A stretch of DNA of 64,000 nucleotides from IMG/VR virus record IMGVR_UViG_3300037483_000742, positions 1 through 64,000 of that record; one strand, 5' to 3'. The notes beneath the pieces are model-generated. The model had not been told where the DNA came from. It worked only from the letters and a program-made list of their open reading frames with translations, and searched no databases. Of this stretch, positions 26,311 to 62,736 are shown in pieces. The position numbers and the translations under genes are program-made. Each line of letters begins with the position of its first letter. Position 1 is the first letter of the stretch. The stretch comes from a virus.

Positions 26311-27738
26311 TTAAGCAATACCATCTTGTAATGGATTATCAATATCAGCAGTTTGTTCAACTACAGCAGGGTTAGTGCTTGCAAGTGCTACATCATCTGC
26401 CAGTGCATGTAAGCCAACCAGAGCAGCAATTCTGTCAAGAATAGTAACTAGACTGTTTCTTGTAACTGTGCTTGTTGCTGGCACTGCAATGATAGTAGCC
26501 AAATTGTTGAAATGTTCCTGCCATCCTGATACAGAGAATTGATCATAAGTCAATGCAAATTGATCATACTCCTCATTAGCTTCAGCATAATAAGTGATGT
26601 CATAAGCTGTACCTGTAGCTTCAGAAAGTCTGTAAGGACCAGGATTTCCATCCCATGCACCTGCATGATATTCTTTCTGCTTGATGTCATAGTAACTTCC
26701 TTCTTCATTAGCAGCATCTTGAGTAGTAATGATAGAACCATTACATTCAAATCCTGAAATCAATGAAGGAACCATGATAGTTTGTCTAGGATTATGATAC
26801 TTCAGGTTGATGTTACAGTAGTTGTTGATTGCCAGTGGAACACTAGTAATTCTAACTCCTGGACATACACCTTCCAAAAGAGCAAGCTCTTCTGAAGTTA
26901 CAACAACACTTGCAAAGTTAACCACAGTTGCAGTTGCTCCAGTTGTATCAGTATCAGCAAATAACACTGTACCTGTAGGATTAGATACAGAATTTCCAAG
27001 TGAAGTGAAAGTTACAGTGGCTCCATCAGCTACAGCTAAGTTGACAGTAGAAGAAGCAAAAGCAGTAGCAATTTTAGTTGCTACACCAGCTTCATCATCT
27101 GCGTTAAGAATAGCTACAACAATAGCTTCTCCATTTGCAGTAACTGTGATGTTACCATCAGCAGTAGGTTCTCCAGTGATTGTGATGCTTCCCTGATTTA
27201 CAAATAGTGCAGCAGTAGCCAAACCATCTGTATCACGGTTAATTTCATCTACAATCAGATTACCCAACTCTTGACAGCTACCTGAAGGACAGTCTTCACA
27301 ACCTTCACAGCAAGAAGTTCTTACAGTGTATGGTTTGCTAAACTGATTATACCCTTGTCTTTTGTAAATTTCCTGGTTACGGAACTCAATTCTAAGTGTA
27401 TAATCTGTATCACATTTTGCAGCAAATCCGGTTAGTTCCATGATTTGAGGTCTTCCAGCAGTGTGAGGTCTGAAAGAGTAGTTCTTAATGTTTCTGGCTT
27501 GAATTAGTTGTCCAGCAGAAACATTAATGTCGTCTAGCACTGAATCACCATCTTTATCAAGACCTACAGCAATAAAGAAATTCTTTACTGGTGCAGTACC
27601 ATCAATAGACAAATCAGTGTTTACATCAAATATTCCTATTTGACCTGGACTTAAAGCATCTACAGTTGATCCAGCAGCAAGCACTACTGCGTTGCCTTTG
27701 GTAACTAGCACTTTAAATACATCATTGTTTGTACTCAT
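26311..27738 (-). CDS. Abundant structural protein (auxiliary capsid protein candidate)
   Basis: 475 aa, third gene after the MCP, codon usage resembling the MCP. Confidence 0.55.
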   Translation of the reverse strand: MSTNNDVFKVLVTKGNAVVLAAGSTVDALSPGQIGIFDVNTDLSIDGTAPVKNFFIAVGLDKDGDSVLDDINVSAGQLIQARNIKNYSFRPHTAGRPQIMELTGFAAKCDTDYTLRIEFRNQEIYKRQGYNQFSKPYTVRTSCCEGCEDCPSGSCQELGNLIVDEINRDTDGLATAALFVNQGSITITGEPTADGNITVTANGEAIVVAILNADDEAGVATKIATAFASSTVNLAVADGATVTFTSLGNSVSNPTGTVLFADTDTTGATATVVNFASVVVTSEELALLEGVCPGVRITSVPLAINNYCNINLKYHNPRQTIMVPSLISGFECNGSIITTQDAANEEGSYYDIKQKEYHAGAWDGNPGPYRLSEATGTAYDITYYAEANEEYDQFALTYDQFSVSGWQEHFNNLATIIAVPATSTVTRNSLVTILDRIAALVGLHALADDVALASTNPAVVEQTADIDNPLQDGIA

Positions 27739-41910: not shown

Positions 41911-42072
41911 CATGTCTGCAAAACCCCCTCTTATCTTTAGTAGTTCTACACCACATTTGGTACATATTCCCAGTGCAACAGTAAAGGGTACATCTGCTTG
42001 GCGAGGCCATTGCTGTTGCCGGAATATTCCAAAACCAATTCACCTATTTATTAACATCTAAAACCTTACAGC

Positions 42073-42144
42073 ATGAAGAAAGCAATGATCATCCACAATG
42101 GTTGCATTACACATCCTGATTGGCTCCACAATCCTAATGCATAA
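42073..42144 (+). CDS. 23-aa micropeptide MKKAMIIHNGCITHPDWLHNPNA
   Basis: A-rich leader; lies between motif copy 2 and a terminator. Confidence 0.4.
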   Translation: MKKAMIIHNGCITHPDWLHNPNA

Positions 42145-42153
42145 TTCCAACTG

Positions 42154-42190
42154 AAGCTGGCAACCTGAATGGTTGCTGGCTTTATCTTTA
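42154..42190 (+). terminator. Intrinsic terminator, family copy 1
   Basis: AAGCTGGCAACC-tgaat-GGTTGCTGGCTT followed by a T-rich tail. Confidence 0.65.
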
Positions 42191-42270
42191 TTTTTACCTA
42201 CCTGCAAAACCCCCTCTAAGTTTAGATATAAATCAATTTCACAAATTACTCACAATTAAATCAATTCATT

Positions 42271-42555
42271 ATGTTAGAATTAACCGTAGAGTCTTCAACC
42301 AAGACTAAAAATGACAACTTCTGCAACAAGTTGGTGTCAAAAACCATTGCCAAAGTAGAGACTGATTTTGGTACTGTTGAATCAGAGCGCACTGTAGCCT
42401 ATTACCTGTTCACCAACAAGGAGAACCCAAAAGGTATGAAGGCAAAGATGAACCTGGAGCTTTTCGATGTGGTAGAGAAATCTTACCCATTCATTGATGA
42501 GCAAGGAGAGGCGCAAGAAGCTACCTTGAAATACCTTTATCCTAAACGAGGATAA
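42271..42555 (+). CDS. Hypothetical early protein
   Basis: 94 aa with its own upstream motif and terminator. Confidence 0.65.
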   Translation: MLELTVESSTKTKNDNFCNKLVSKTIAKVETDFGTVESERTVAYYLFTNKENPKGMKAKMNLELFDVVEKSYPFIDEQGEAQEATLKYLYPKRG

Positions 42556-42563
42556 TTAGGATT

Positions 42564-42598
42564 GAGCCAGTGACCCATTAGGGTTGCTGGCTTTATTT
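42564..42598 (+). terminator. Intrinsic terminator, family copy 2
   Basis: GAGCCAGTGACCC-atta-GGGTTGCTGGCTT followed by a T-rich tail. Confidence 0.65.
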
Positions 42599-43013
42599 AA
42601 TCACTTAATATGTTAGCCAGCCCCAACATTGAAATATGATTAGGCTACAGGATTGAATATATTAATGAATCTTAAATTGAGTATGATATAATGAATAGGA
42701 TGAGCCAGGATCATTTGGCTCTCTGCTTAATTTGTATTACCTACAGGCAATACCCCCACTAATTTTAAGCTGTTAAACTTAGCAGAGATATGTTTAATGT
42801 ATTATATATTGATGAATTGAAATCAGTAAGATGTTTTTGATTGATTAAATGATTACATTAGCCGAAATTGATTAGGATTGAGAGATTAATTTAGTGTTCA
42901 TGATTGTGCCACTACACCTCATCAACCAAATTGATTCATTTTAGCCTTGCATAAAATATTAATCTATTACCAATATAGCCCTATTTTATTAATCCATTCT
43001 AAACTCCACATTT

Positions 43014-43454
43014 ATGAATACTTATATCTATCCACAATTTAAAGACTTACCTGCAACTCAAGTTGCATTAGATAAGATCGAAAAGCTTAAAGAAATTCAT
43101 CAATTAGCTATGGATGCTATTAAAGCAGAATTAAAAGTAGCAGAAGATAAATTCATTGCTGAAAGAGCTAAAAGAAGAGAAGAAGTTATTTGGGATTTCA
43201 CAATGTCAGAACCTACAATTAATGAGTTTGGAAAACATTATCATATTAGCAGAATGGCATTAAATCCATTAGCAGGAGATGATGAGTTTTATAAAACTAT
43301 TAATTATCAATCATTCAAAATTGTTAATAATGTATTCATAGCAACTGGAGGGGGATATATACTTCCAGTTAATTCAGGACACATATTAACTAAAGAAGAG
43401 ATTGATATGTTAGATAATAACATTGTACCTGAAGTTCTTAAAAGAACAAAATAA
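43014..43454 (+). CDS. Hypothetical protein
   Basis: 146-aa ORF followed by a terminator. Confidence 0.65.
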   Translation: MNTYIYPQFKDLPATQVALDKIEKLKEIHQLAMDAIKAELKVAEDKFIAERAKRREEVIWDFTMSEPTINEFGKHYHISRMALNPLAGDDEFYKTINYQSFKIVNNVFIATGGGYILPVNSGHILTKEEIDMLDNNIVPEVLKRTK

Positions 43455-43461
43455 AACTAAT

Positions 43462-43493
43462 AAGAATGGGAGCATAATAACTCCCATTCTTTT
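43462..43493 (+). terminator. Intrinsic terminator
   Basis: AAGAATGGGAG...CTCCCATTCTTTT. Confidence 0.7.
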
Positions 43494-43504
43494 ACACTAA
43501 TATT

Positions 43505-43654
43505 ATGGAAGAAGAGAGAGAAAAGAAAGAACTATTACAATCAATGTATAAAGTCCTATTAGCCTGGCAACTTGATGAAGAATGTTGTATTACTGAATAT
43601 AAAGCTTCAGTTGGAGCTATGGAAGATATTAAACAAGTATTTCAATTAACCTAA
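43505..43654 (+). CDS. 49-aa hypothetical protein (not in ORF track)
   Basis: MEEEREKKELLQSMYKVLLAWQLDEECC...FQLT*; fills the gap. Confidence 0.55.
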   Translation: MEEEREKKELLQSMYKVLLAWQLDEECCITEYKASVGAMEDIKQVFQLT

Positions 43655-43659
43655 CTATT

Positions 43660-44055
43660 ATGAACTTATCTAAAGCAATTAAAGTATTTGGGATATTGTA
43701 TATACTTATCTCCTTATTCAATTTAGGTGTAGTTATCATGTATGTTATTACAGACAATATGATTATTGCAATTCCTATAACTATTTGTTGGATCATCTTA
43801 ACAACAATCTTTGTTATATTCATACTAAATCAACCACCTATATTCAGATTCATAGGTAAGTATGATAATATTACAAGACCTCAATTACCTTATAAAAGAC
43901 CACTAACAGAAGATGAAATGATTACATTAAGAACCTATTATCCTGAATTTGGATGGACTACTCATGTTGATAACAGAGGACACATCCTATTAAATGGAGG
44001 AATGGATAATAGTGCAATACATTACACAACTCCTGAACACTTAGCAAAATATTAA
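43660..44055 (+). CDS. Membrane protein with two transmembrane segments
   Basis: Two hydrophobic N-terminal helices. Confidence 0.6.
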   Translation: MNLSKAIKVFGILYILISLFNLGVVIMYVITDNMIIAIPITICWIILTTIFVIFILNQPPIFRFIGKYDNITRPQLPYKRPLTEDEMITLRTYYPEFGWTTHVDNRGHILLNGGMDNSAIHYTTPEHLAKY

Positions 44056-44076
44056 CCCTTAAAAACATCCACAATT

Positions 44077-44391
44077 ATGGTAACAACAATTTTAGTATTA
44101 TGTGCATCCTTCATATTAGGTTGTATCTTAACTCTTGCATTTAGCTGGATATTCACACCACATAAAAATCATGTGAATCCTGCTTTATTTATGGTTCAAT
44201 CTGTATCATTTATGATTATTGCAATCTTAATGTATTATTGGCCTGAACAACAAGAAGCTCCTCTACCTTCAGATTACATTATCAATCTTGAACAAGATAG
44301 TGTTCATATTGATACAGAAGATGGAAGATGTTTGATGTTTCATGCAGACAGTATAGATATTGATGAATTTATTATTCAAGATAATCTCTAA
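44077..44391 (+). CDS. Membrane protein with two transmembrane segments
   Basis: Two hydrophobic helices and an acidic tail. Confidence 0.6.
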   Translation: MVTTILVLCASFILGCILTLAFSWIFTPHKNHVNPALFMVQSVSFMIIAILMYYWPEQQEAPLPSDYIINLEQDSVHIDTEDGRCLMFHADSIDIDEFIIQDNL

Positions 44392-45051
44392 ACCTATGAA
44401 AAAACCATCCCACAAAAAACAACCTTTATTACCAATAATCTTAAAACAATTATTGCTACTAAAGAAGAAACAACCATCTATAGGAAATATAGATATTCGT
44501 TTAGCAAGATCATTATCACTTTAAAATCCTAAACTCTTATCCAATTGCAGACGCATTAGCTAATTACTAATGATAATGGGTGTAAAGCTAAATGACTATC
44601 AACTTAGCTCAGATTCTGTATAATAGCCAGATTAAGGTGCAACCTTATAAGAGTTTATTTTTAATTTATCCACCTAAAACCTATCATCATGCAAATCCAC
44701 ATTGTATTTATCAATGTTCACGCATGTAGTGTCTTTCCTTCATTTTACCCTCAATCTTATATCTCCATATATAGTATTCTCGTAAGAGAAATTATACCAG
44801 TGTGGTGGGCATATCTTTTTCCAATTATCTACAAAATGATTGGAATTGGAGCCTGGGATTCAAGGTTAGTTCCTTGGATTCATGTATACAGTCAAGGTAT
44901 AAATACGGTAGCCTGAAAGTTAAAATATCAGATTTCTGAAGATTATGTATTCTGAAAACTAAATAAGCTCATTATGGATTTAACTCTAAATACACCGAGC
45001 TAGTATTTTAATGAATAAGAGACCTACATTGAACATAGTCAATCTTATAGA

Positions 45052-45095
45052 AAGGTTCCTGTTGCTCTAGATAGTAACAGGAACCTTGTTTTATT
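45052..45095 (+). terminator. 15-bp hairpin, probable terminator
   Basis: AAGGTTCCTGTTGCT-ctagat-AGTAACAGGAACCTT then GTTTTATT. Confidence 0.6.
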
Positions 45096-45114
45096 AACCC
45101 TCACAATCCAAAGT

Positions 45115-45507
45115 ATGAAAAGACCTAACATCAAAGTATACTATTGTATTACTAGACATGGTATTATTCAATTTCCTAAAGAATTAGCATCAAGTAATCA
45201 ATGTGTAATTGAAGGTCATGATAAATACTATTACACCTGTAAAATCCACACCGACAATAAAAAATTAGATTCACAAGGATTCATTATTGATCATAATGAT
45301 ATTGATTCAACAATCACTAAAGAACTTATCAGAAAGCAATTCACAGGTTCATGTGAATTGATGGCTGAAGCAATGATTGCTTTAGTTATCAAAATGCTCA
45401 AAAAGAAAAAGCAAAGATTCAAATCTATTGAAATTATCTTAAAAGGTAAACTTAATGATAGTCCTGCTTTTATTACAGCAAACTACATCAATAAAAACTT
45501 TAAATAA
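45115..45507 (+). CDS. QueD / 6-pyruvoyl-tetrahydropterin synthase-like T-fold protein, divergent
   Basis: CVIEGHDKYYY, LDSQGFIIDH and SCELMAEAM parallel the QueD CxxxHGHxY, GxxxDF and TxExxA motifs. Confidence 0.55.
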   Translation: MKRPNIKVYYCITRHGIIQFPKELASSNQCVIEGHDKYYYTCKIHTDNKKLDSQGFIIDHNDIDSTITKELIRKQFTGSCELMAEAMIALVIKMLKKKKQRFKSIEIILKGKLNDSPAFITANYINKNFK

Positions 45508-45514
45508 AAACGTT

Positions 45515-46195
45515 ATGACAACTAAAGCGAACAGCACAGTAAGTCTAAAAACATCTCAAGGAGATGTAAGAGTCAAAAAAGGAAAACTAATACTTATTAA
45601 AAAAGATTTATTTCCTGAAATAGGTATGATTGGTAGTAATGAAGTTCATCCATTATTTATATGGACCAACCAACACAAACAAAATTGTTTGAAATTAGTT
45701 GAATACAAACATTCTCAATTAATGTTAACAATTATCATATCTGAAACAGATCAGATTGAAAATGGTCACATGATGTGGGATTCTATCAATAATCATATTG
45801 TGAAATGCACTGATGCAGAACTGAAAGAAAATGTTTTATCTGATGAGACAAGAATGGCTTATCATAGAAGTTCTACATTCAAAATATTAGCAATGCCTAC
45901 AAACTTTTCACCTAAACAATTACAAGCAATTGTAGATGGTAAGATGAAAAATGGTGATGAAGTATACGTTCAATGTAAGAGAGTAGGTTATCAGCATATG
46001 TCAGCAGATTTTGTTGACCTGGATTCTAACAATCATATTACTCTTCATAAAGTTGAACAAAAAATGTATACTAAAGAAGAAATTGAATCTAAATGCAAAG
46101 ACTATCTAAATGCTTATCTTGCAAATATAGCAGGTAATAAGTCTACAATAATTGATACATTCAACAGTGATGAATGGTTTCAAAAACATCTATAA
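45515..46195 (+). CDS. Hypothetical protein
   Basis: Likely start at MTTKANS rather than 45455; C-terminal KMYTKEEI..FNSDEWF tail. Confidence 0.6.
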   Translation: MTTKANSTVSLKTSQGDVRVKKGKLILIKKDLFPEIGMIGSNEVHPLFIWTNQHKQNCLKLVEYKHSQLMLTIIISETDQIENGHMMWDSINNHIVKCTDAELKENVLSDETRMAYHRSSTFKILAMPTNFSPKQLQAIVDGKMKNGDEVYVQCKRVGYQHMSADFVDLDSNNHITLHKVEQKMYTKEEIESKCKDYLNAYLANIAGNKSTIIDTFNSDEWFQKHL

Positions 46196-46470
46196 AAATA
46201 TTCCCATAAGCTTTGCGAATCTGATGAAGGTACTGAAGCAACGAGGGCTAACTCGGAGAACCTGAATTAACAGGATGGGTGTATCATTTAATTACAATAA
46301 CAGGTGTCACATTCCAGCCCTGAAAGAATCCATTTGAAGCTATGGATAAATACATGGACTGCCTTCTATGTATTGAATGATAAGTTAAACTAAAAGCCTT
46401 TAATGCTTATCAATTTTAAGACTAACAGTGTAGAGCTTATTGTAATTGAATAACCTTTAAAAATTTAATT

Positions 46471-46728
46471 ATGCAATGCAAACATATACCTGACAAACCA
46501 ATATTAGAGTTTCTGTTACAACATAAACCTAAATGGTGTAATTGGTATTTCGGAGATGAAAGAGATGTACATAAAGCAATGCCAGAAAATATTCCAAATA
46601 AACTTGTTATTAATAAAATGAGACAACTTATAAGAAGAGGAATAGTTACAGGATGTGGTTGCGGATGTAGAGGAGACTTTGAAATAACACCAAAAGGTGA
46701 AGAATTACTTAAAACTTTGGTCTCATAG
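46471..46728 (+). CDS. Winged-helix-like protein with GCGCGCRGDF motif
   Basis: KMRQLIRRGIVTGCGCGCRGDFEITPKG; its stop codon lies inside tRNA-Arg. Confidence 0.6.
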   Translation: MQCKHIPDKPILEFLLQHKPKWCNWYFGDERDVHKAMPENIPNKLVINKMRQLIRRGIVTGCGCGCRGDFEITPKGEELLKTLVS

Positions 46729-47955: not shown

Positions 47956-47989
47956 AAAAACCCTTTGAGAGAAATCTCAAGGGGTTTTT
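47956..47989 (+). terminator. Intrinsic, possibly bidirectional, terminator
   Basis: AAAAACCCTTTGAGA-GAAA-TCTCAAGGGGTTTTT. Confidence 0.75.
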
Positions 47990-60634: not shown

Positions 60635-60824
60635 GAAAATTTTTATCAGTATAATTGATGGATTAATGTCAGTTTTAGTAGTAATTGCTTTATTAATAGT
60701 AGCTACTTACATTTCTCTTAAAATAAAACACGAATTTGAACTGCAACCAATTGAAAACCTTATTTTAAATATAGGTTTAGGGTTTGTTGTTTACAGGATG
60801 CATAAATTATTGAATAAATCTTAA
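60606..60824 (+). CDS. Small membrane protein
   Basis: Two hydrophobic segments; start likely MKVKK. Confidence 0.5.
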   Translation: MKKGRKMKVKKIFISIIDGLMSVLVVIALLIVATYISLKIKHEFELQPIENLILNIGLGFVVYRMHKLLNKS

Positions 60825-60834
60825 AAGATTAGTT

Positions 60835-62736
60835 ATGAAGTACACAGTATTCGATTTAGAGAGTGATGGTTTATTAGATATAGTAACAAAGATACATTGT
60901 CTGAGTTACAGAATTTTTGATAGTAAACAGTTACTATATTCTGGTACTATAACTGATTATGAAGAAATGAAGAAATTTATTATGGCTCAAGAAATTCTTG
61001 TGGGCCATAATATAATTCTTTATGATGTTCCTGTGATCAGAAAGATACTTCATATAGACCCCCTGGCTGAATTAATTGACTCTTTGGGATTGTCCTGGTA
61101 CTTATCCCCAATTAAAGGCTTTAAGCATGGTTTAGAAGCTTGGGGAGAAAGGTTTGGTATTCCTAAACCAGTTATTAAGGATTGGAATAATCTGACTATT
61201 CAGGAATATATTCATAGATGTGAAGAGGATGTTAAGATAAATTCTAGACTTATCCATGAAACTTTAGACTACATGATGGAAATCTATGGAGATTTTGATC
61301 AAGTTAAGAGAGCAATAGCTTACAATAGATTTAAATTGGAATGTTTGAAAGAGCAACAAGAAAATGGTATAACTTTAGATCAAAGACTTGCAGAAGAAAG
61401 CAGAATGAATTTAGAGTTTGAAATTGAAGAGAAAGTTTCAAAACTCTCTAAAATGATGCCAGCTATTGAAGATAAAAAAGCTCCTAAAAAAATGTACAAG
61501 AAAGATGGAACTTTATCTGCACATGGAGAAAAATGGAAAGTTTACACTGAATCAAAAGGTCTTACTGTTGAAGCTGAGAAAACATATTTGCCAGGAAATC
61601 CTGGCTCTAATGATCAACTTAAAAATTGGTTGTTTTCTTATGGCTGGAAACCTCAAACTTTCAAAGTATCAAAAGCTACAAAGAAAAGATTAGCACAAGT
61701 TTCTCTTCCTTTTGGAGGGGGTTTATGCCCAAGTGTAATTGAATTAATTGAACAACATCCTGAATTGAAAGAGTTAGAAGGCTTCTTTGTTGCAAGACAT
61801 AGAGCAGGTCTTTTTAAATCATTCTTAGAAAATATGGATGATAAAGGTTTGATTTATTCTACAGCACAAGGATTTACTAATACTTACAGAATGCAGCATT
61901 CTAAGCCAATTGCTAATTTGCCAGGAGTAGATAAATTCTATGGTAAAGAAGTGAGAGGTTGTATTGCAGTTCCTGATGAAAGTTATGAGATGGTTGGAAG
62001 TGATATTTCTGGATTGGAGGATAATACTAAACAACATTACATGTATTTCTACGATCCTGACTATGTTAATGAAATGAGAATCCCAGGATTTGATCCTCAC
62101 ATAGATATTGCTGTTTTTGCTGGTCTAATGACAGAAGAACAAGCTAGTAGGTTCAAAGAATTAAATGCTAAAGTAGAAAATGAAGAAACTTTAACTCCTG
62201 AAGAAAAAACAGAATTTAAAGCACTCAAATTAATCAGAGGAAATGCAAAGGTAGTAAACTTCTCAGGAGTATATGGAGCAGGACCACCTAAGATGGCAGA
62301 GACTTTGAAGAGTGATTTAGCATTTGCAGAAAAACTACATACTGCTTACTGGAAAAGAAATTCCTCAGTGAAAAAAGTAGCTAAGAATTGTAAAGTTGCT
62401 AAAGTTAGAAATCAAGCTTGGTTATACAATCCTGTTTCTGGTCTTTGGATGTTTCTAAAAGAAGATAAAGATAGATTTAGTACTTTGAATCAGAGTACTG
62501 GAGTTTATGTTTTTGACACTTGGATGAAATATGTTAGAAGAAGATTGAATCCAATGGGAATTAAAATTCTACTACAATATCATGATGAACTTTTGATACA
62601 GTACAAAAAGGAATTTAAAACTGTAGTAGCTATGCATTTAAAAGAAGCTATGATTGAAGCTAATGAAGAACTTCAATTGAATGTGAAAATAGAAATTAGT
62701 AGCAACTTTGGTAAAAATTATGCAGAATGCCATTAG
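60835..62736 (+). CDS. Family A DNA polymerase with 3'-5' exonuclease
   Basis: FDLESDGL, GHNIILYD, RCEEDV; motif A GSDISGLE, motif B KVVNFSGVYG, motif C QYHDE. Confidence 0.95.
   Translation: MKYTVFDLESDGLLDIVTKIHCLSYRIFDSKQLLYSGTITDYEEMKKFIMAQEILVGHNIILYDVPVIRKILHIDPLAELIDSLGLSWYLSPIKGFKHGLEAWGERFGIPKPVIKDWNNLTIQEYIHRCEEDVKINSRLIHETLDYMMEIYGDFDQVKRAIAYNRFKLECLKEQQENGITLDQRLAEESRMNLEFEIEEKVSKLSKMMPAIEDKKAPKKMYKKDGTLSAHGEKWKVYTESKGLTVEAEKTYLPGNPGSNDQLKNWLFSYGWKPQTFKVSKATKKRLAQVSLPFGGGLCPSVIELIEQHPELKELEGFFVARHRAGLFKSFLENMDDKGLIYSTAQGFTNTYRMQHSKPIANLPGVDKFYGKEVRGCIAVPDESYEMVGSDISGLEDNTKQHYMYFYDPDYVNEMRIPGFDPHIDIAVFAGLMTEEQASRFKELNAKVENEETLTPEEKTEFKALKLIRGNAKVVNFSGVYGAGPPKMAETLKSDLAFAEKLHTAYWKRNSSVKKVAKNCKVAKVRNQAWLYNPVSGLWMFLKEDKDRFSTLNQSTGVYVFDTWMKYVRRRLNPMGIKILLQYHDELLIQYKKEFKTVVAMHLKEAMIEANEELQLNVKIEISSNFGKNYAECH

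What the first reader, a model, noticed from the sequence alone, without database searches (positions are those of the whole stretch)
46206..46440. 235-nt multi-domain RNA candidate with a possible pseudoknot upstream of tRNA-Arg
Seen: closing stem ATAAGCTTTGC/GTAGAGCTTAT. An inner domain GGTAC/GTATC encloses CGAG-ggctaa-CTCG and CCTG-aattaa-CAGG. Three further hairpins follow: ATCCAT/ATGGAT, AATACATGGA/TCTATGTATT and TGATAAG/CTTATCA. AGGGCT (46244-46249) is complementary to AGCCCT (46316-46321), giving a pseudoknot or an alternative fold. There is no ORF, and I do not recognise the family. It is the most complex of the RNA candidates.
Basis: seen in the sequence. Interest (0 to 1): 0.72.

Follow-up and report, generated by a model that had tools for sequence, protein, structure and literature searches.

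The report
Conserved structured RNA in crAss-like phages
Part of this phage intergenic gap (46286-46451, not the 235 nt proposed) belongs to a small structured RNA motif absent from Rfam, found in four distantly related crAss-like phages; its stems keep pairing while changing sequence, so it is very likely functional, though what it does is unknown.

Summary
The window is the first 64 kb of a complete 92-kb crAss-like (FpV4-like) phage. His architecture does not hold. The 235-nt fold is ordinary for this genome: 7% of windows fold as well for their GC. When the whole 275-nt gap is folded, his closing stem, GGTAC/GTATC helix and pseudoknot are not used.

Word scans of IMG/VR found three homologues in other crAss-like phages (capsid identity 70, 47 and 31%). 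They define a different element, window 46286-46451:
- a 13-15 bp closing stem whose sequence differs in all four genomes but always pairs;
- a hairpin with a nearly invariant 9-nt loop (CACAUUCCA);
- a nearly invariant 19-nt strand (AAGACUAACAGURUAGAGC).

Between hairpin and strand lies a short linker that takes lineage-specific inserts. Two homologues are bare 75-76-nt forms.

Covariation is strong: 16 of 21 pairs show double changes, 96% of cells pair, and 0 of 500 shuffles reach this. There is one copy per genome, always co-directional with the flanking genes. No neighbouring gene is shared. There is no Rfam match.

Function is unknown. My best guess is a gene-independent cis-acting or protein-binding RNA in the early-arm transcript. 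The 5' third of the finding (46198-46284) has thermodynamic support only. Expression could not be tested.

The parts
46198..46284 (+). 5' domain: predicted four-way junction specific to this phage. It is not part of the conserved motif.
   Evidence: RNAfold gives -24.7 kcal/mol, the MFE holds 37% of the ensemble, z = -2.85, 3 of 200 shuffles as good. GC is 0.43-0.44, in the top 0.7% of windows. No homologue was found in any locus or in six whole related genomes.
46286..46300 (+). P1, 5' arm of the conserved closing stem
   Evidence: Pairs with 46437-46451 by 14 Watson-Crick pairs and 1 G-U (repeat I1). The same stem position has a different sequence but keeps pairing in L253, L301 and L302; 13 of 15 pairs show double changes.
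46301..46322 (+). P2 hairpin: 4+2 bp stem with a bulged U, and a 9-nt loop CACAUUCCA (46308-46316)
   Evidence: A 26 of 26 nt match to G014 covers this hairpin. The loop is identical in 3 of 4 members, with one U-to-C change in the fourth. Three of the six stem pairs covary (CAGG/CCUG, CCAG/CUGG, UAGG/CCUA).
46323..46417 (+).
   Evidence: The first two have pair probability about 0.96, and all three are in the MFE and centroid folds. At this position G014 has an unrelated stretch of about 50 nt, and G015 and G016 have only a 5-7-nt linker.
46418..46436 (+). Conserved 19-nt strand AAGACUAACAGURUAGAGC, joining P2 or the insert to the P1 3' arm
   Evidence: Identical in all four members except one R (G/A) position and one A/U position at its 5' end. 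It is not found in bacterial or archaeal genomes or in GenBank phages.
46437..46451 (+). P1, 3' arm of the conserved closing stem
Evidence: As for the 5' arm.
46445..46470 (+). Upstream motif of the next gene: ATTGAATAA, 3 nt, then a T-rich/AAAA block, ending at the ATG at 46471
   Evidence: The same 24-26-nt motif, at the same distance from an ATG, occurs at 60809 (DNA polymerase gene) and 67031. No other site in the 92 kb matches with 1 mismatch or fewer. A shorter 18-nt form gives 4 forward and 0 reverse sites at up to 1 mismatch.

Best explanation
Window 46286-46451 is one member of a conserved structured-RNA motif of crAss-like (Crassvirales-type) phages that is not in Rfam. Shown: the minimal form is about 75 nt. 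It has a 13-15-bp closing stem P1, stacked directly on a short hairpin P2 with a nearly invariant 9-nt loop. The 3' side of the junction is a nearly invariant 19-nt strand preceded by a short linker. Shown: there is one copy per genome, always in the direction of the flanking genes, 3-9 kb into the arm opposite the structural genes, and no conserved neighbouring gene. Inferred: it is made as RNA from the sense strand, as part of the early or middle polycistronic transcript. Inferred: the invariant loop and strand form a binding or catalytic platform, while P1 only has to pair. Because the downstream gene differs in every genome, my best guess is a gene-independent signal. It could mark the transcript for processing or stabilisation, or modify the transcribing polymerase (antitermination-like). 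It could also be released as a small stable RNA that binds a conserved host or core-phage protein. The preceding 87 nt (46198-46284) are a separate, unverified candidate domain. My confidence that this is a real conserved structured RNA on this strand is about 0.8. My confidence in the specific mode of action is about 0.3. The confidence figure given for this explanation (0.7) refers to the structural claim together with the general reading as a gene-independent RNA element.
For: Homologues: a 16-mer and a 17-mer scan of IMG/VR returned L253 (G014), L301 (G015) and L302 (G016). All three are crAss-like phages, with capsid protein identity of 70%, 31% and 47% to this phage.
Covariance models: the model built from the window alone scores the homologues at 58.8, 47.1 and 38.6 bits (E = 1e-11 to 8e-7). 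The four-member model gives 82-94 bits and one hit per genome.
Covariation: 96.4% of cells pair, 16 of 21 pairs have changes on both sides, 0 of 500 shuffles reach this, and slid controls pair at 22-48%. RNAalifold predicts P1 and P2 on its own.
Fold: RNAfold of the whole gap chooses the conserved P1. The 166 nt alone give z = -3.82, 0 of 200 shuffles.
Strand: 7 G-U cells and no A-C cell on the sense strand. Flanking genes are co-directional in all four genomes.
Island of conservation: within 2 kb either side only the motif blocks are shared, and within about 5 kb either side no protein is shared.
Not coding: in G014 a stop codon lies directly before the conserved block with no start codon, and the 3' block is read in different frames in G015 and G016.
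Precedent: the crAss-like phage phi14:2 makes abundant early non-coding RNAs of unknown function from long intergenic regions (bioRxiv 10.1101/2020.03.07.982082).
Against: There are only four members. The alignment used for pair counting was fitted to the model, although the stems can be read directly. The invariant blocks carry no covariation, so their fold is unknown, and no consistent loop-strand pseudoknot was found. In the two minimal forms the antisense strand folds at least as stably, so the strand assignment rests on G-U counts and gene direction. The motif is absent from 13 closer or similar relatives, from phi14:2 and from 49 further phage records, so it is not essential to the group. 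No gene co-occurs with it, so no partner is identified. The proposed mode of action is inference from position alone.
Confidence: 0.7

Rival explanations
1. The conserved 75-nt core is a new class of small self-cleaving ribozyme that cuts the polycistronic transcript.
For: It is small, with about 45 nearly invariant nucleotides concentrated in a loop and a junction strand. Its stems need only pair. It has an optional insert of variable length. It lies in phage intergenic regions with no consistent gene association. These are typical traits of twister, pistol and hatchet ribozymes (own knowledge).
Against: There is no match to any Rfam ribozyme model at E <= 10. The hammerhead-like CUGAUGA at 46221 lies outside the conserved element and is absent from the homologues. 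No cleavage-site context or tertiary pairing could be identified. Nothing here tests catalysis.
Confidence: 0.12
2. The element acts at the DNA level, as a single-stranded hairpin or cruciform. Examples would be a replication origin, a priming signal or a polymerase loading site.
For: There is one copy per genome at a conserved genome-scale position, 15-19 kb from the capsid gene. In this phage the cumulative GC-skew minimum (45,557) is 0.7 kb away.
Against: In G014 and G015 the skew minima coincide with the strand switch and lie 3.4 and 4.3 kb from the element. There are no iterons or AT-rich unwinding block; the region is GC-richer than its flanks. G-U (G-T) wobbles and the bulged U fit RNA better. 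Many complete relatives lack it.
Confidence: 0.08
3. One reading: one 235-nt multi-domain RNA (46206-46440), closed by ATAAGCTTTGC/GTAGAGCTTAT and with an AGGGCT/AGCCCT pseudoknot.
For: The closing stem has pair probability 0.96 when exactly these 235 nt are folded. It could be an alternative, lineage-specific conformer.
Against: The stem is not formed when the whole gap is folded. Its 3' strand lies in the invariant strand of the conserved motif. The homologues have no 5' domain at all. The pseudoknot has probability 0.04 and GGTAC/GTATC 0.00. The energy is ordinary for this genome, at the 7th percentile. A 12-bp stem with three G-U pairs spanning 100-300 nt is expected about once per 400 nt at this base composition (my own estimate).
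Confidence: 0.05
4. The gap is an ordinary spacer, made of the 3' untranslated tail of gene 45455-46195 plus the promoter or leader of gene 46471, and its hairpins are chance features of AT-rich DNA.
For: The 235-nt energy is unremarkable against the genome background. Local 50-nt folds are mostly around -10 kcal/mol, roughly the top 7%. The last 26 nt do look like a shared gene-start signal. This remains the default reading for 46198-46284 and for the three insert hairpins.
Against: It cannot explain 26 of 26 and 18-19 of 19 nt identity with phages whose capsid proteins are only 31-70% identical. It cannot explain the covarying stems.
Confidence: 0.05

Closest known systems
Orphan structured RNA motifs of phages and metagenomes found by comparative genomics (the Weinberg/Breaker-type motif collections now held in Rfam)
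   Same: A short intergenic element with covarying stems and invariant loop and junction nucleotides. It is phage-borne and has no assigned function.
   Different: It matches none of the 4227 Rfam 15 models at E <= 10. So far it is seen only in four uncultured crAss-like phage records.
Early long non-coding RNAs of the crAss-like Cellulophaga phage phi14:2 (intergenic regions g004-g005 and g005-g006; bioRxiv 10.1101/2020.03.07.982082)
   Same: Non-coding transcripts arising a few kb into the early arm of a crAss-like phage of Flavobacteriia, with unknown function. G014 also has 1.4 kb without ORFs directly after the motif.
   Different: There is no sequence or structure match: the four-member model finds nothing in the whole phi14:2 genome. 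Expression of the present element is untested.
Cis-acting processive antitermination RNAs (HK022 put sites; lambda nut boxA/boxB)
   Same: Small structured or conserved RNA sites placed early in a long co-directional phage operon. They act whatever gene follows. This resemblance is from my own knowledge and concerns how the element might work.
   Different: There is no sequence or architectural similarity. Here a long closing stem encloses one hairpin and a conserved 19-nt strand. No terminator read-through has been shown.
Small self-cleaving ribozymes common in phage DNA (hammerhead, twister, pistol, hatchet)
   Same: Similar size, an invariant core with freely covarying stems, optional inserts, and no consistent gene association.
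   Different: No Rfam ribozyme model matches. Hammerhead core boxes are not part of the conserved element. Catalysis is untested.
Stable small RNAs encoded beside phage tRNA genes (T4 species 1 and 2 RNAs, rnaC and rnaD)
   Same: A non-coding structured RNA of unknown role in a phage region that also carries tRNA genes. This applies to the window only and is from my own knowledge.
   Different: The other three members have no tRNA within the loci examined (for L253). The tRNA association is therefore not a feature of the motif.

Membership tests
Any Rfam 15 family | Covariance-model score at or near the family's gathering threshold | tested here: not met
   At gathering thresholds only the three tRNAs match in the window. 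At E <= 10, on 801 nt of the window, 1.8 kb of L253 and 121 nt of L302, there are only sub-threshold chance hits of 13-17 bits, to snoRNA, lncRNA and sRNA models.
Hammerhead ribozyme | CUGANGA and GAAA core boxes placed between three helices, with stem II directly flanked by the two boxes and a cleavage site ahead of the stem I 3' strand | tested here: not met
   CUGAUGA (46221-46227) and GAAA (46322-46325) both exist. Only 3 bp can form between the flanking bases. No A15.1-U16.1 or H17 arrangement fits (my reading). CUGAUGA is outside the conserved element and absent from L253, L301 and L302. No Rfam hammerhead model hits.
tRNA or tRNA-like gene | Cloverleaf with D- and T-loop consensus, detectable by ARAGORN or Rfam RF00005 | tested here: not met
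   ARAGORN finds only the tRNAs at 46719, 47995 and 52292. There is no RF00005 hit in 46196-46470 at E <= 10.
The new motif itself (P1, P2 with CACAUUCCA loop, GACUAACAGURUAGAGC strand) | Closing stem of 12 bp or more flanking the two invariant blocks, with pairing kept by compensatory change | tested here: met
   The window scores 82.9 bits with the four-member model. Thirteen of 15 P1 pairs and 3 of 6 P2 pairs show double changes.
The new motif itself | Transcribed, and functional as RNA on the sense strand | not testable with these tools
The only indirect support is 7 G-U against 0 A-C cells and co-direction with the genes.
phi14:2-type early lncRNA | Homology to the phi14:2 intergenic transcripts | tested here: not met
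   The four-member model finds no match at E <= 10 in NC_021806. blastn of the minimal element against 50,697 GenBank phage records gave no relevant hit.
MITE or other transposable miniature element | Several copies per genome, conserved terminal inverted repeats, target-site duplication | tested here: not met
   There is a single copy in each genome. The terminal arms differ in sequence in all four members. No flanking duplication is visible.

The most novel reading that the evidence does not exclude
The 75-nt core is a new functional RNA class specific to crAss-like phages. It would be either a new small self-cleaving ribozyme or an RNA that binds the transcribing polymerase (host or phage-encoded) and reprogrammes transcription of the early or replication arm.
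Probability: 0.2. Interest if true: 0.85.

Novelty: new variant of a known kind. Interest (0 to 1): 0.6.

Why it matters
crAss-like phages are among the most abundant viruses of Bacteroidota hosts, and their regulation is poorly understood. In the one well-studied model, phi14:2, the early transcripts share no recognisable upstream motif, and abundant early non-coding RNAs have no known role. Here a 75-nt RNA keeps about 45 nucleotides nearly unchanged across phages whose capsid proteins are only 31-70% identical, while every surrounding gene has been replaced. That indicates strong selection. It offers a concrete, small and easily synthesised object to test for cleavage, protein binding or effects on transcription.

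Tried and rejected
Similarity searches with the whole gap:
- blastn, nhmmer and tblastx against 36 loci carrying homologues of the downstream 85-aa gene, 17 loci with relatives of the upstream 246-aa gene, and 80 loci with relatives of the 172-aa gene found nothing. Those relatives have no equivalent gap.
- Both flanking genes are absent from five related genomes.

Models and word scans:
- An exact 27-mer from the 5' domain gave 0 hits in IMG/VR.
- Two patterns in 185,579 bacterial and archaeal genomes gave 0 hits.
- GenBank phages gave 0 relevant hits.
- A metagenome scan with the upstream protein returned only distant relatives without the element.

Closer relatives exist but could not be fetched.

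Ideas considered and dropped:
- Paralogues within the genome: none. The 9-mer ATGGGTGTA shared with the 44530 element occurs only twice in 92 kb and is consistent with chance.
- Gene remnant or small ORF: no open frame and no tblastx signal.
- Conserved peptide across block A: rejected, because G014 has a stop directly before it and the frames differ.
- Loop-strand pseudoknot: present in 2 of 4 members only.
- Antisense targets of the invariant blocks elsewhere in the genomes: none shared.
- A protein gene co-occurring with the motif: none.
- Literature search for the invariant sequences: only unrelated PCR primers.
- Sigma-70-type promoter and terminator scan: nothing notable inside the gap.

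Full report
CONTEXT. The window is bases 1-64000 of a complete 92,012-bp IMG/VR virus record with 127-bp direct terminal repeats. GC content is 31%. Its terminase, portal and major head proteins match crAss-type PHROG families. The major capsid protein is 76% identical to that of the Flavobacterium psychrophilum phages FpV4 and Fpv3. Structural genes lie on the minus strand up to about 40.7 kb. From about 41.6 kb a long plus-strand arm carries small accessory genes, three tRNAs, and helicase and DNA polymerase genes. The finding lies in a 275-nt gap (46196-46470) between a 246-aa ORF (45455-46195, no PHROG match) and an 85-aa ORF (46471-46728, phrog_5135). That second ORF overlaps the start of tRNA-Arg(TCT) at 46719.

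CHECK OF THE OBSERVATION. All listed complementary segments are present at the stated coordinates. The gap has no ORF of 45 aa or more. The plus strand of 46206-46440 folds to -58.5 kcal/mol, z = -2.91 against shuffles; the minus strand gives z = -1.33. Shuffles overstate the case. I folded 1224 windows of 235 nt across the whole genome and regressed energy on GC. On that scale the finding sits at z = -1.49, and 7% of windows do as well or better, even though its frame was hand-picked. Within the 235 nt, the closing stem and two of the three 3' hairpins are robust, with pair probability about 0.96. The third 3' hairpin is present in the minimum-energy and centroid folds; my probability for it was taken one base out of register and does not count. 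GGTAC/GTATC has probability 0.00, CCTG/CAGG 0.07, CGAG/CTCG 0.32 and the pseudoknot 0.04. The 5' 100-130 nt are unusually GC-rich for this genome: 0.43-0.44, in the top 0.7% of windows. In the accessory arm they share that property with the tRNA loci and a few other gaps. No Rfam 15 family matches at E <= 10.

SEARCH FOR RELATIVES. The first rounds found nothing.
- Loci carrying relatives of either flanking gene, or of the nearby 172-aa gene, have no similar sequence and usually no gap.
- Thirteen related phage records lack it by blastn and by a single-sequence covariance model.
- GenBank phages match only the tRNA.
- Closer relatives exist: proteins 89% and 57% identical to the upstream gene.

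An exact 16-mer scan of IMG/VR then produced one meaningful locus among about 90 unrelated ones. This was L253, a 95,389-bp complete phage (G014) with capsid protein 70% identical to ours. It has a 26 of 26 nt match to window 46300-46325 and a second block matching 46419-46437. A scan with the second block added L301 (G015, 94,209 bp, capsid 31% identical) and L302 (G016, a 27-kb fragment, capsid 47% identical).

WHAT THE FOUR SEQUENCES SHOW. In every genome the two conserved blocks are bracketed by a stem of 12-15 bp. The stem's sequence is different each time but always complementary. In the window it is 46286-46300 with 46437-46451, 14 Watson-Crick pairs and one G-U. The repeat finder had already listed this as the best inverted repeat of the region (repeat I1).
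- Block A is a hairpin (P2, 46301-46322). It has a 4+2-bp stem, a bulged U and the loop CACAUUCCA. Its outer four pairs read CAGG/CCUG, CCAG/CUGG or UAGG/CCUA in different members.
- Block B (46418-46436) is a 19-nt strand, AAGACUAACAGURUAGAGC. It is identical in all four apart from one R position and one position at its 5' end.
- Between P2 and block B, G015 and G016 have only 5-7 nt, giving total lengths of 75-76 nt. G014 has about 50 unrelated nt.

A covariance model built from the window alone scores the three homologues at 58.8, 47.1 and 38.6 bits. The four-member model gives 82-94 bits and one copy per genome. Pair counting gives 96.4% of cells paired and 16 of 21 pairs with changes on both sides. 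None of 500 shuffles reaches this, and slid controls pair at 22-48%. RNAalifold predicts P1 and P2 on its own, with 14 covarying pairs. The counting alignment was fitted to the model, but the stems can be read directly.

The 166 nt alone give z = -3.82. The true element is therefore 46286-46451. His pseudoknot partner AGCCCT is the 3' strand of P2.

THE REST OF THE GAP. Bases 46198-46284 fold on their own into a well-defined four-way junction (-24.7 kcal/mol, 37% of the ensemble, z = -2.85). No homologue was found in any locus or in six whole related genomes. It remains a candidate supported only by thermodynamics and GC content. The last 26 nt of the gap (46445-46470) carry a motif beginning ATTGAATAA. 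The motif recurs at the same distance before the start codons at 60835 (DNA polymerase) and 67059. It is probably a promoter or translation-initiation signal of the next gene, and it overlaps the P1 3' arm by 7 nt.

CONTEXT OF THE MOTIF.
- The element is co-directional with its flanking genes in all four genomes.
- It lies 3-9 kb into the arm opposite the structural genes, and 15-19 kb from the capsid gene.
- In three genomes a start codon follows 19-28 nt downstream, but the three genes are unrelated. In G014 the element is followed by 1.3-1.4 kb without ORFs.
- Upstream neighbours are also unrelated. In G015 the neighbour is an HNH endonuclease; in G016 it is a 415-nt divergent intergenic region.
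- No protein gene is shared within about 5 kb either side, and only the motif blocks are shared within 2 kb either side.
- No gene of this phage is present in the carriers and absent from three complete non-carriers.
- The motif is absent from 13 related records, from phi14:2 and from 49 further phage records. It is also absent from 185,579 bacterial and archaeal genomes by two exact patterns and from GenBank phages.
- It is not coding. G014 has a stop codon directly before block A and no start codon, and block B is read in different frames in G015 and G016.
- G-U pairs occur only on the sense strand: 7 cells against 0 A-C cells. Together with gene direction, this favours a sense-strand RNA. 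The antisense strand of the minimal forms folds at least as stably, so this point is not settled.

HOW IT MOST LIKELY WORKS. Shown: this is a conserved structure with a sequence-free closing helix, an invariant loop and an invariant 19-nt strand. It has one copy per genome and is independent of neighbouring genes. Inferred: it acts as RNA within the early or middle polycistronic transcript, and the invariant nucleotides form a binding or catalytic surface. Because the downstream gene is never the same, a gene-specific riboswitch or leader is unlikely. I favour a gene-independent signal, at about 0.3 within an overall 0.8 that the RNA is real. This could be a processing or stabilising module, an antitermination-like site acting on the polymerase, or a small stable RNA that binds a conserved host or core-phage protein.

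The rivals are as follows.
- A new self-cleaving ribozyme (0.12). The anatomy fits, no known class matches, and catalysis is untested.
- A DNA-level hairpin such as an origin or priming site (0.08). There is a single copy at a syntenic position, but the GC-skew minima in G014 and G015 lie 3.4 and 4.3 kb away at the strand switches.
- A functionless spacer (0.05). This is excluded for the conserved core only.

COMPARISON WITH KNOWN SYSTEMS. The element matches no Rfam family. It fails the hammerhead, tRNA and MITE tests (see the membership table). It is not homologous to the phi14:2 early non-coding RNAs, which remain the nearest biological precedent (bioRxiv 10.1101/2020.03.07.982082). It is best described as a new family within the known kind "orphan conserved structured RNA motifs of phages".

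VERDICT. The boundaries are corrected to 46286-46451. This is a real conserved RNA motif that is not in Rfam and has unknown function. Interest is 0.6.

Noticed in passing
window 46445-46470, 60809-60834; G000 67031-67058: A shared motif of about 26 nt (ATTGAATAA, 3 nt, T-N-AAAA, then an A/T-rich block) ends at the start codons of the 85-aa gene, the DNA polymerase gene and a third gene. No other site in the 92 kb matches with 1 mismatch or fewer. It is a candidate promoter or translational operator, and includes a Flavobacterium-type TAAAA ribosome-binding element (own knowledge).
   Followed up: partly
L253 4841-6134 (G014 about 73,772-75,065): About 1.3 kb with no ORF of 45 aa or more directly follows the motif in G014. 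This recalls the long, highly expressed early intergenic regions of phi14:2. No Rfam hit.
   Followed up: partly
G015 26,674-26,759 (minus strand): An intergenic hairpin carries a 13-nt copy of part of the conserved strand (TAACAGTATAGAG). Here it is paired with an upstream complement inside a 10-11-bp closing stem. It scores 17.9 bits with the four-member model. It may be a distant paralogue or a hint of what the strand pairs with.
   Followed up: partly
L113 1799-2130 (LKMJ01000619.1): An unrelated phage contig, fetched through the upstream-gene relatives, carries what looks like a tmRNA gene. It has a GGGGTGAAAGGATTCGACA start and a tRNA-like 3' end. It was not run through ARAGORN.
   Followed up: no
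window 45052-45087 and 47956-47989: Two strong terminator-like hairpins (15-bp stems followed by T-rich tails) lie on the plus strand. The second is immediately before tRNA-Asn. Five such sites were found in this 5-kb stretch against 1.4 expected from shuffles.
   Followed up: no
L301 4626-4087 (minus strand): In G015 the gene directly upstream of the motif is an HNH homing-endonuclease-like protein, with a CDN...C.NP.HL..GT...N motif. This hints that the region is a hot spot for mobile insertions.
   Followed up: no
G000 whole genome; window about 42,000-46,000: The cumulative GC-skew minimum is at 45,557, at the end of a flat plateau from 42 to 46 kb. This is about 4.5 kb beyond the transcriptional strand switch. 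In G014 and G015 the minimum coincides with the switch instead.
   Followed up: partly
window 46221-46227: A hammerhead-like CUGAUGA box lies in the lineage-specific 5' domain, with a GAAA at 46322-46325. No hammerhead geometry can be built and no Rfam model hits, so this is chance.
   Followed up: yes
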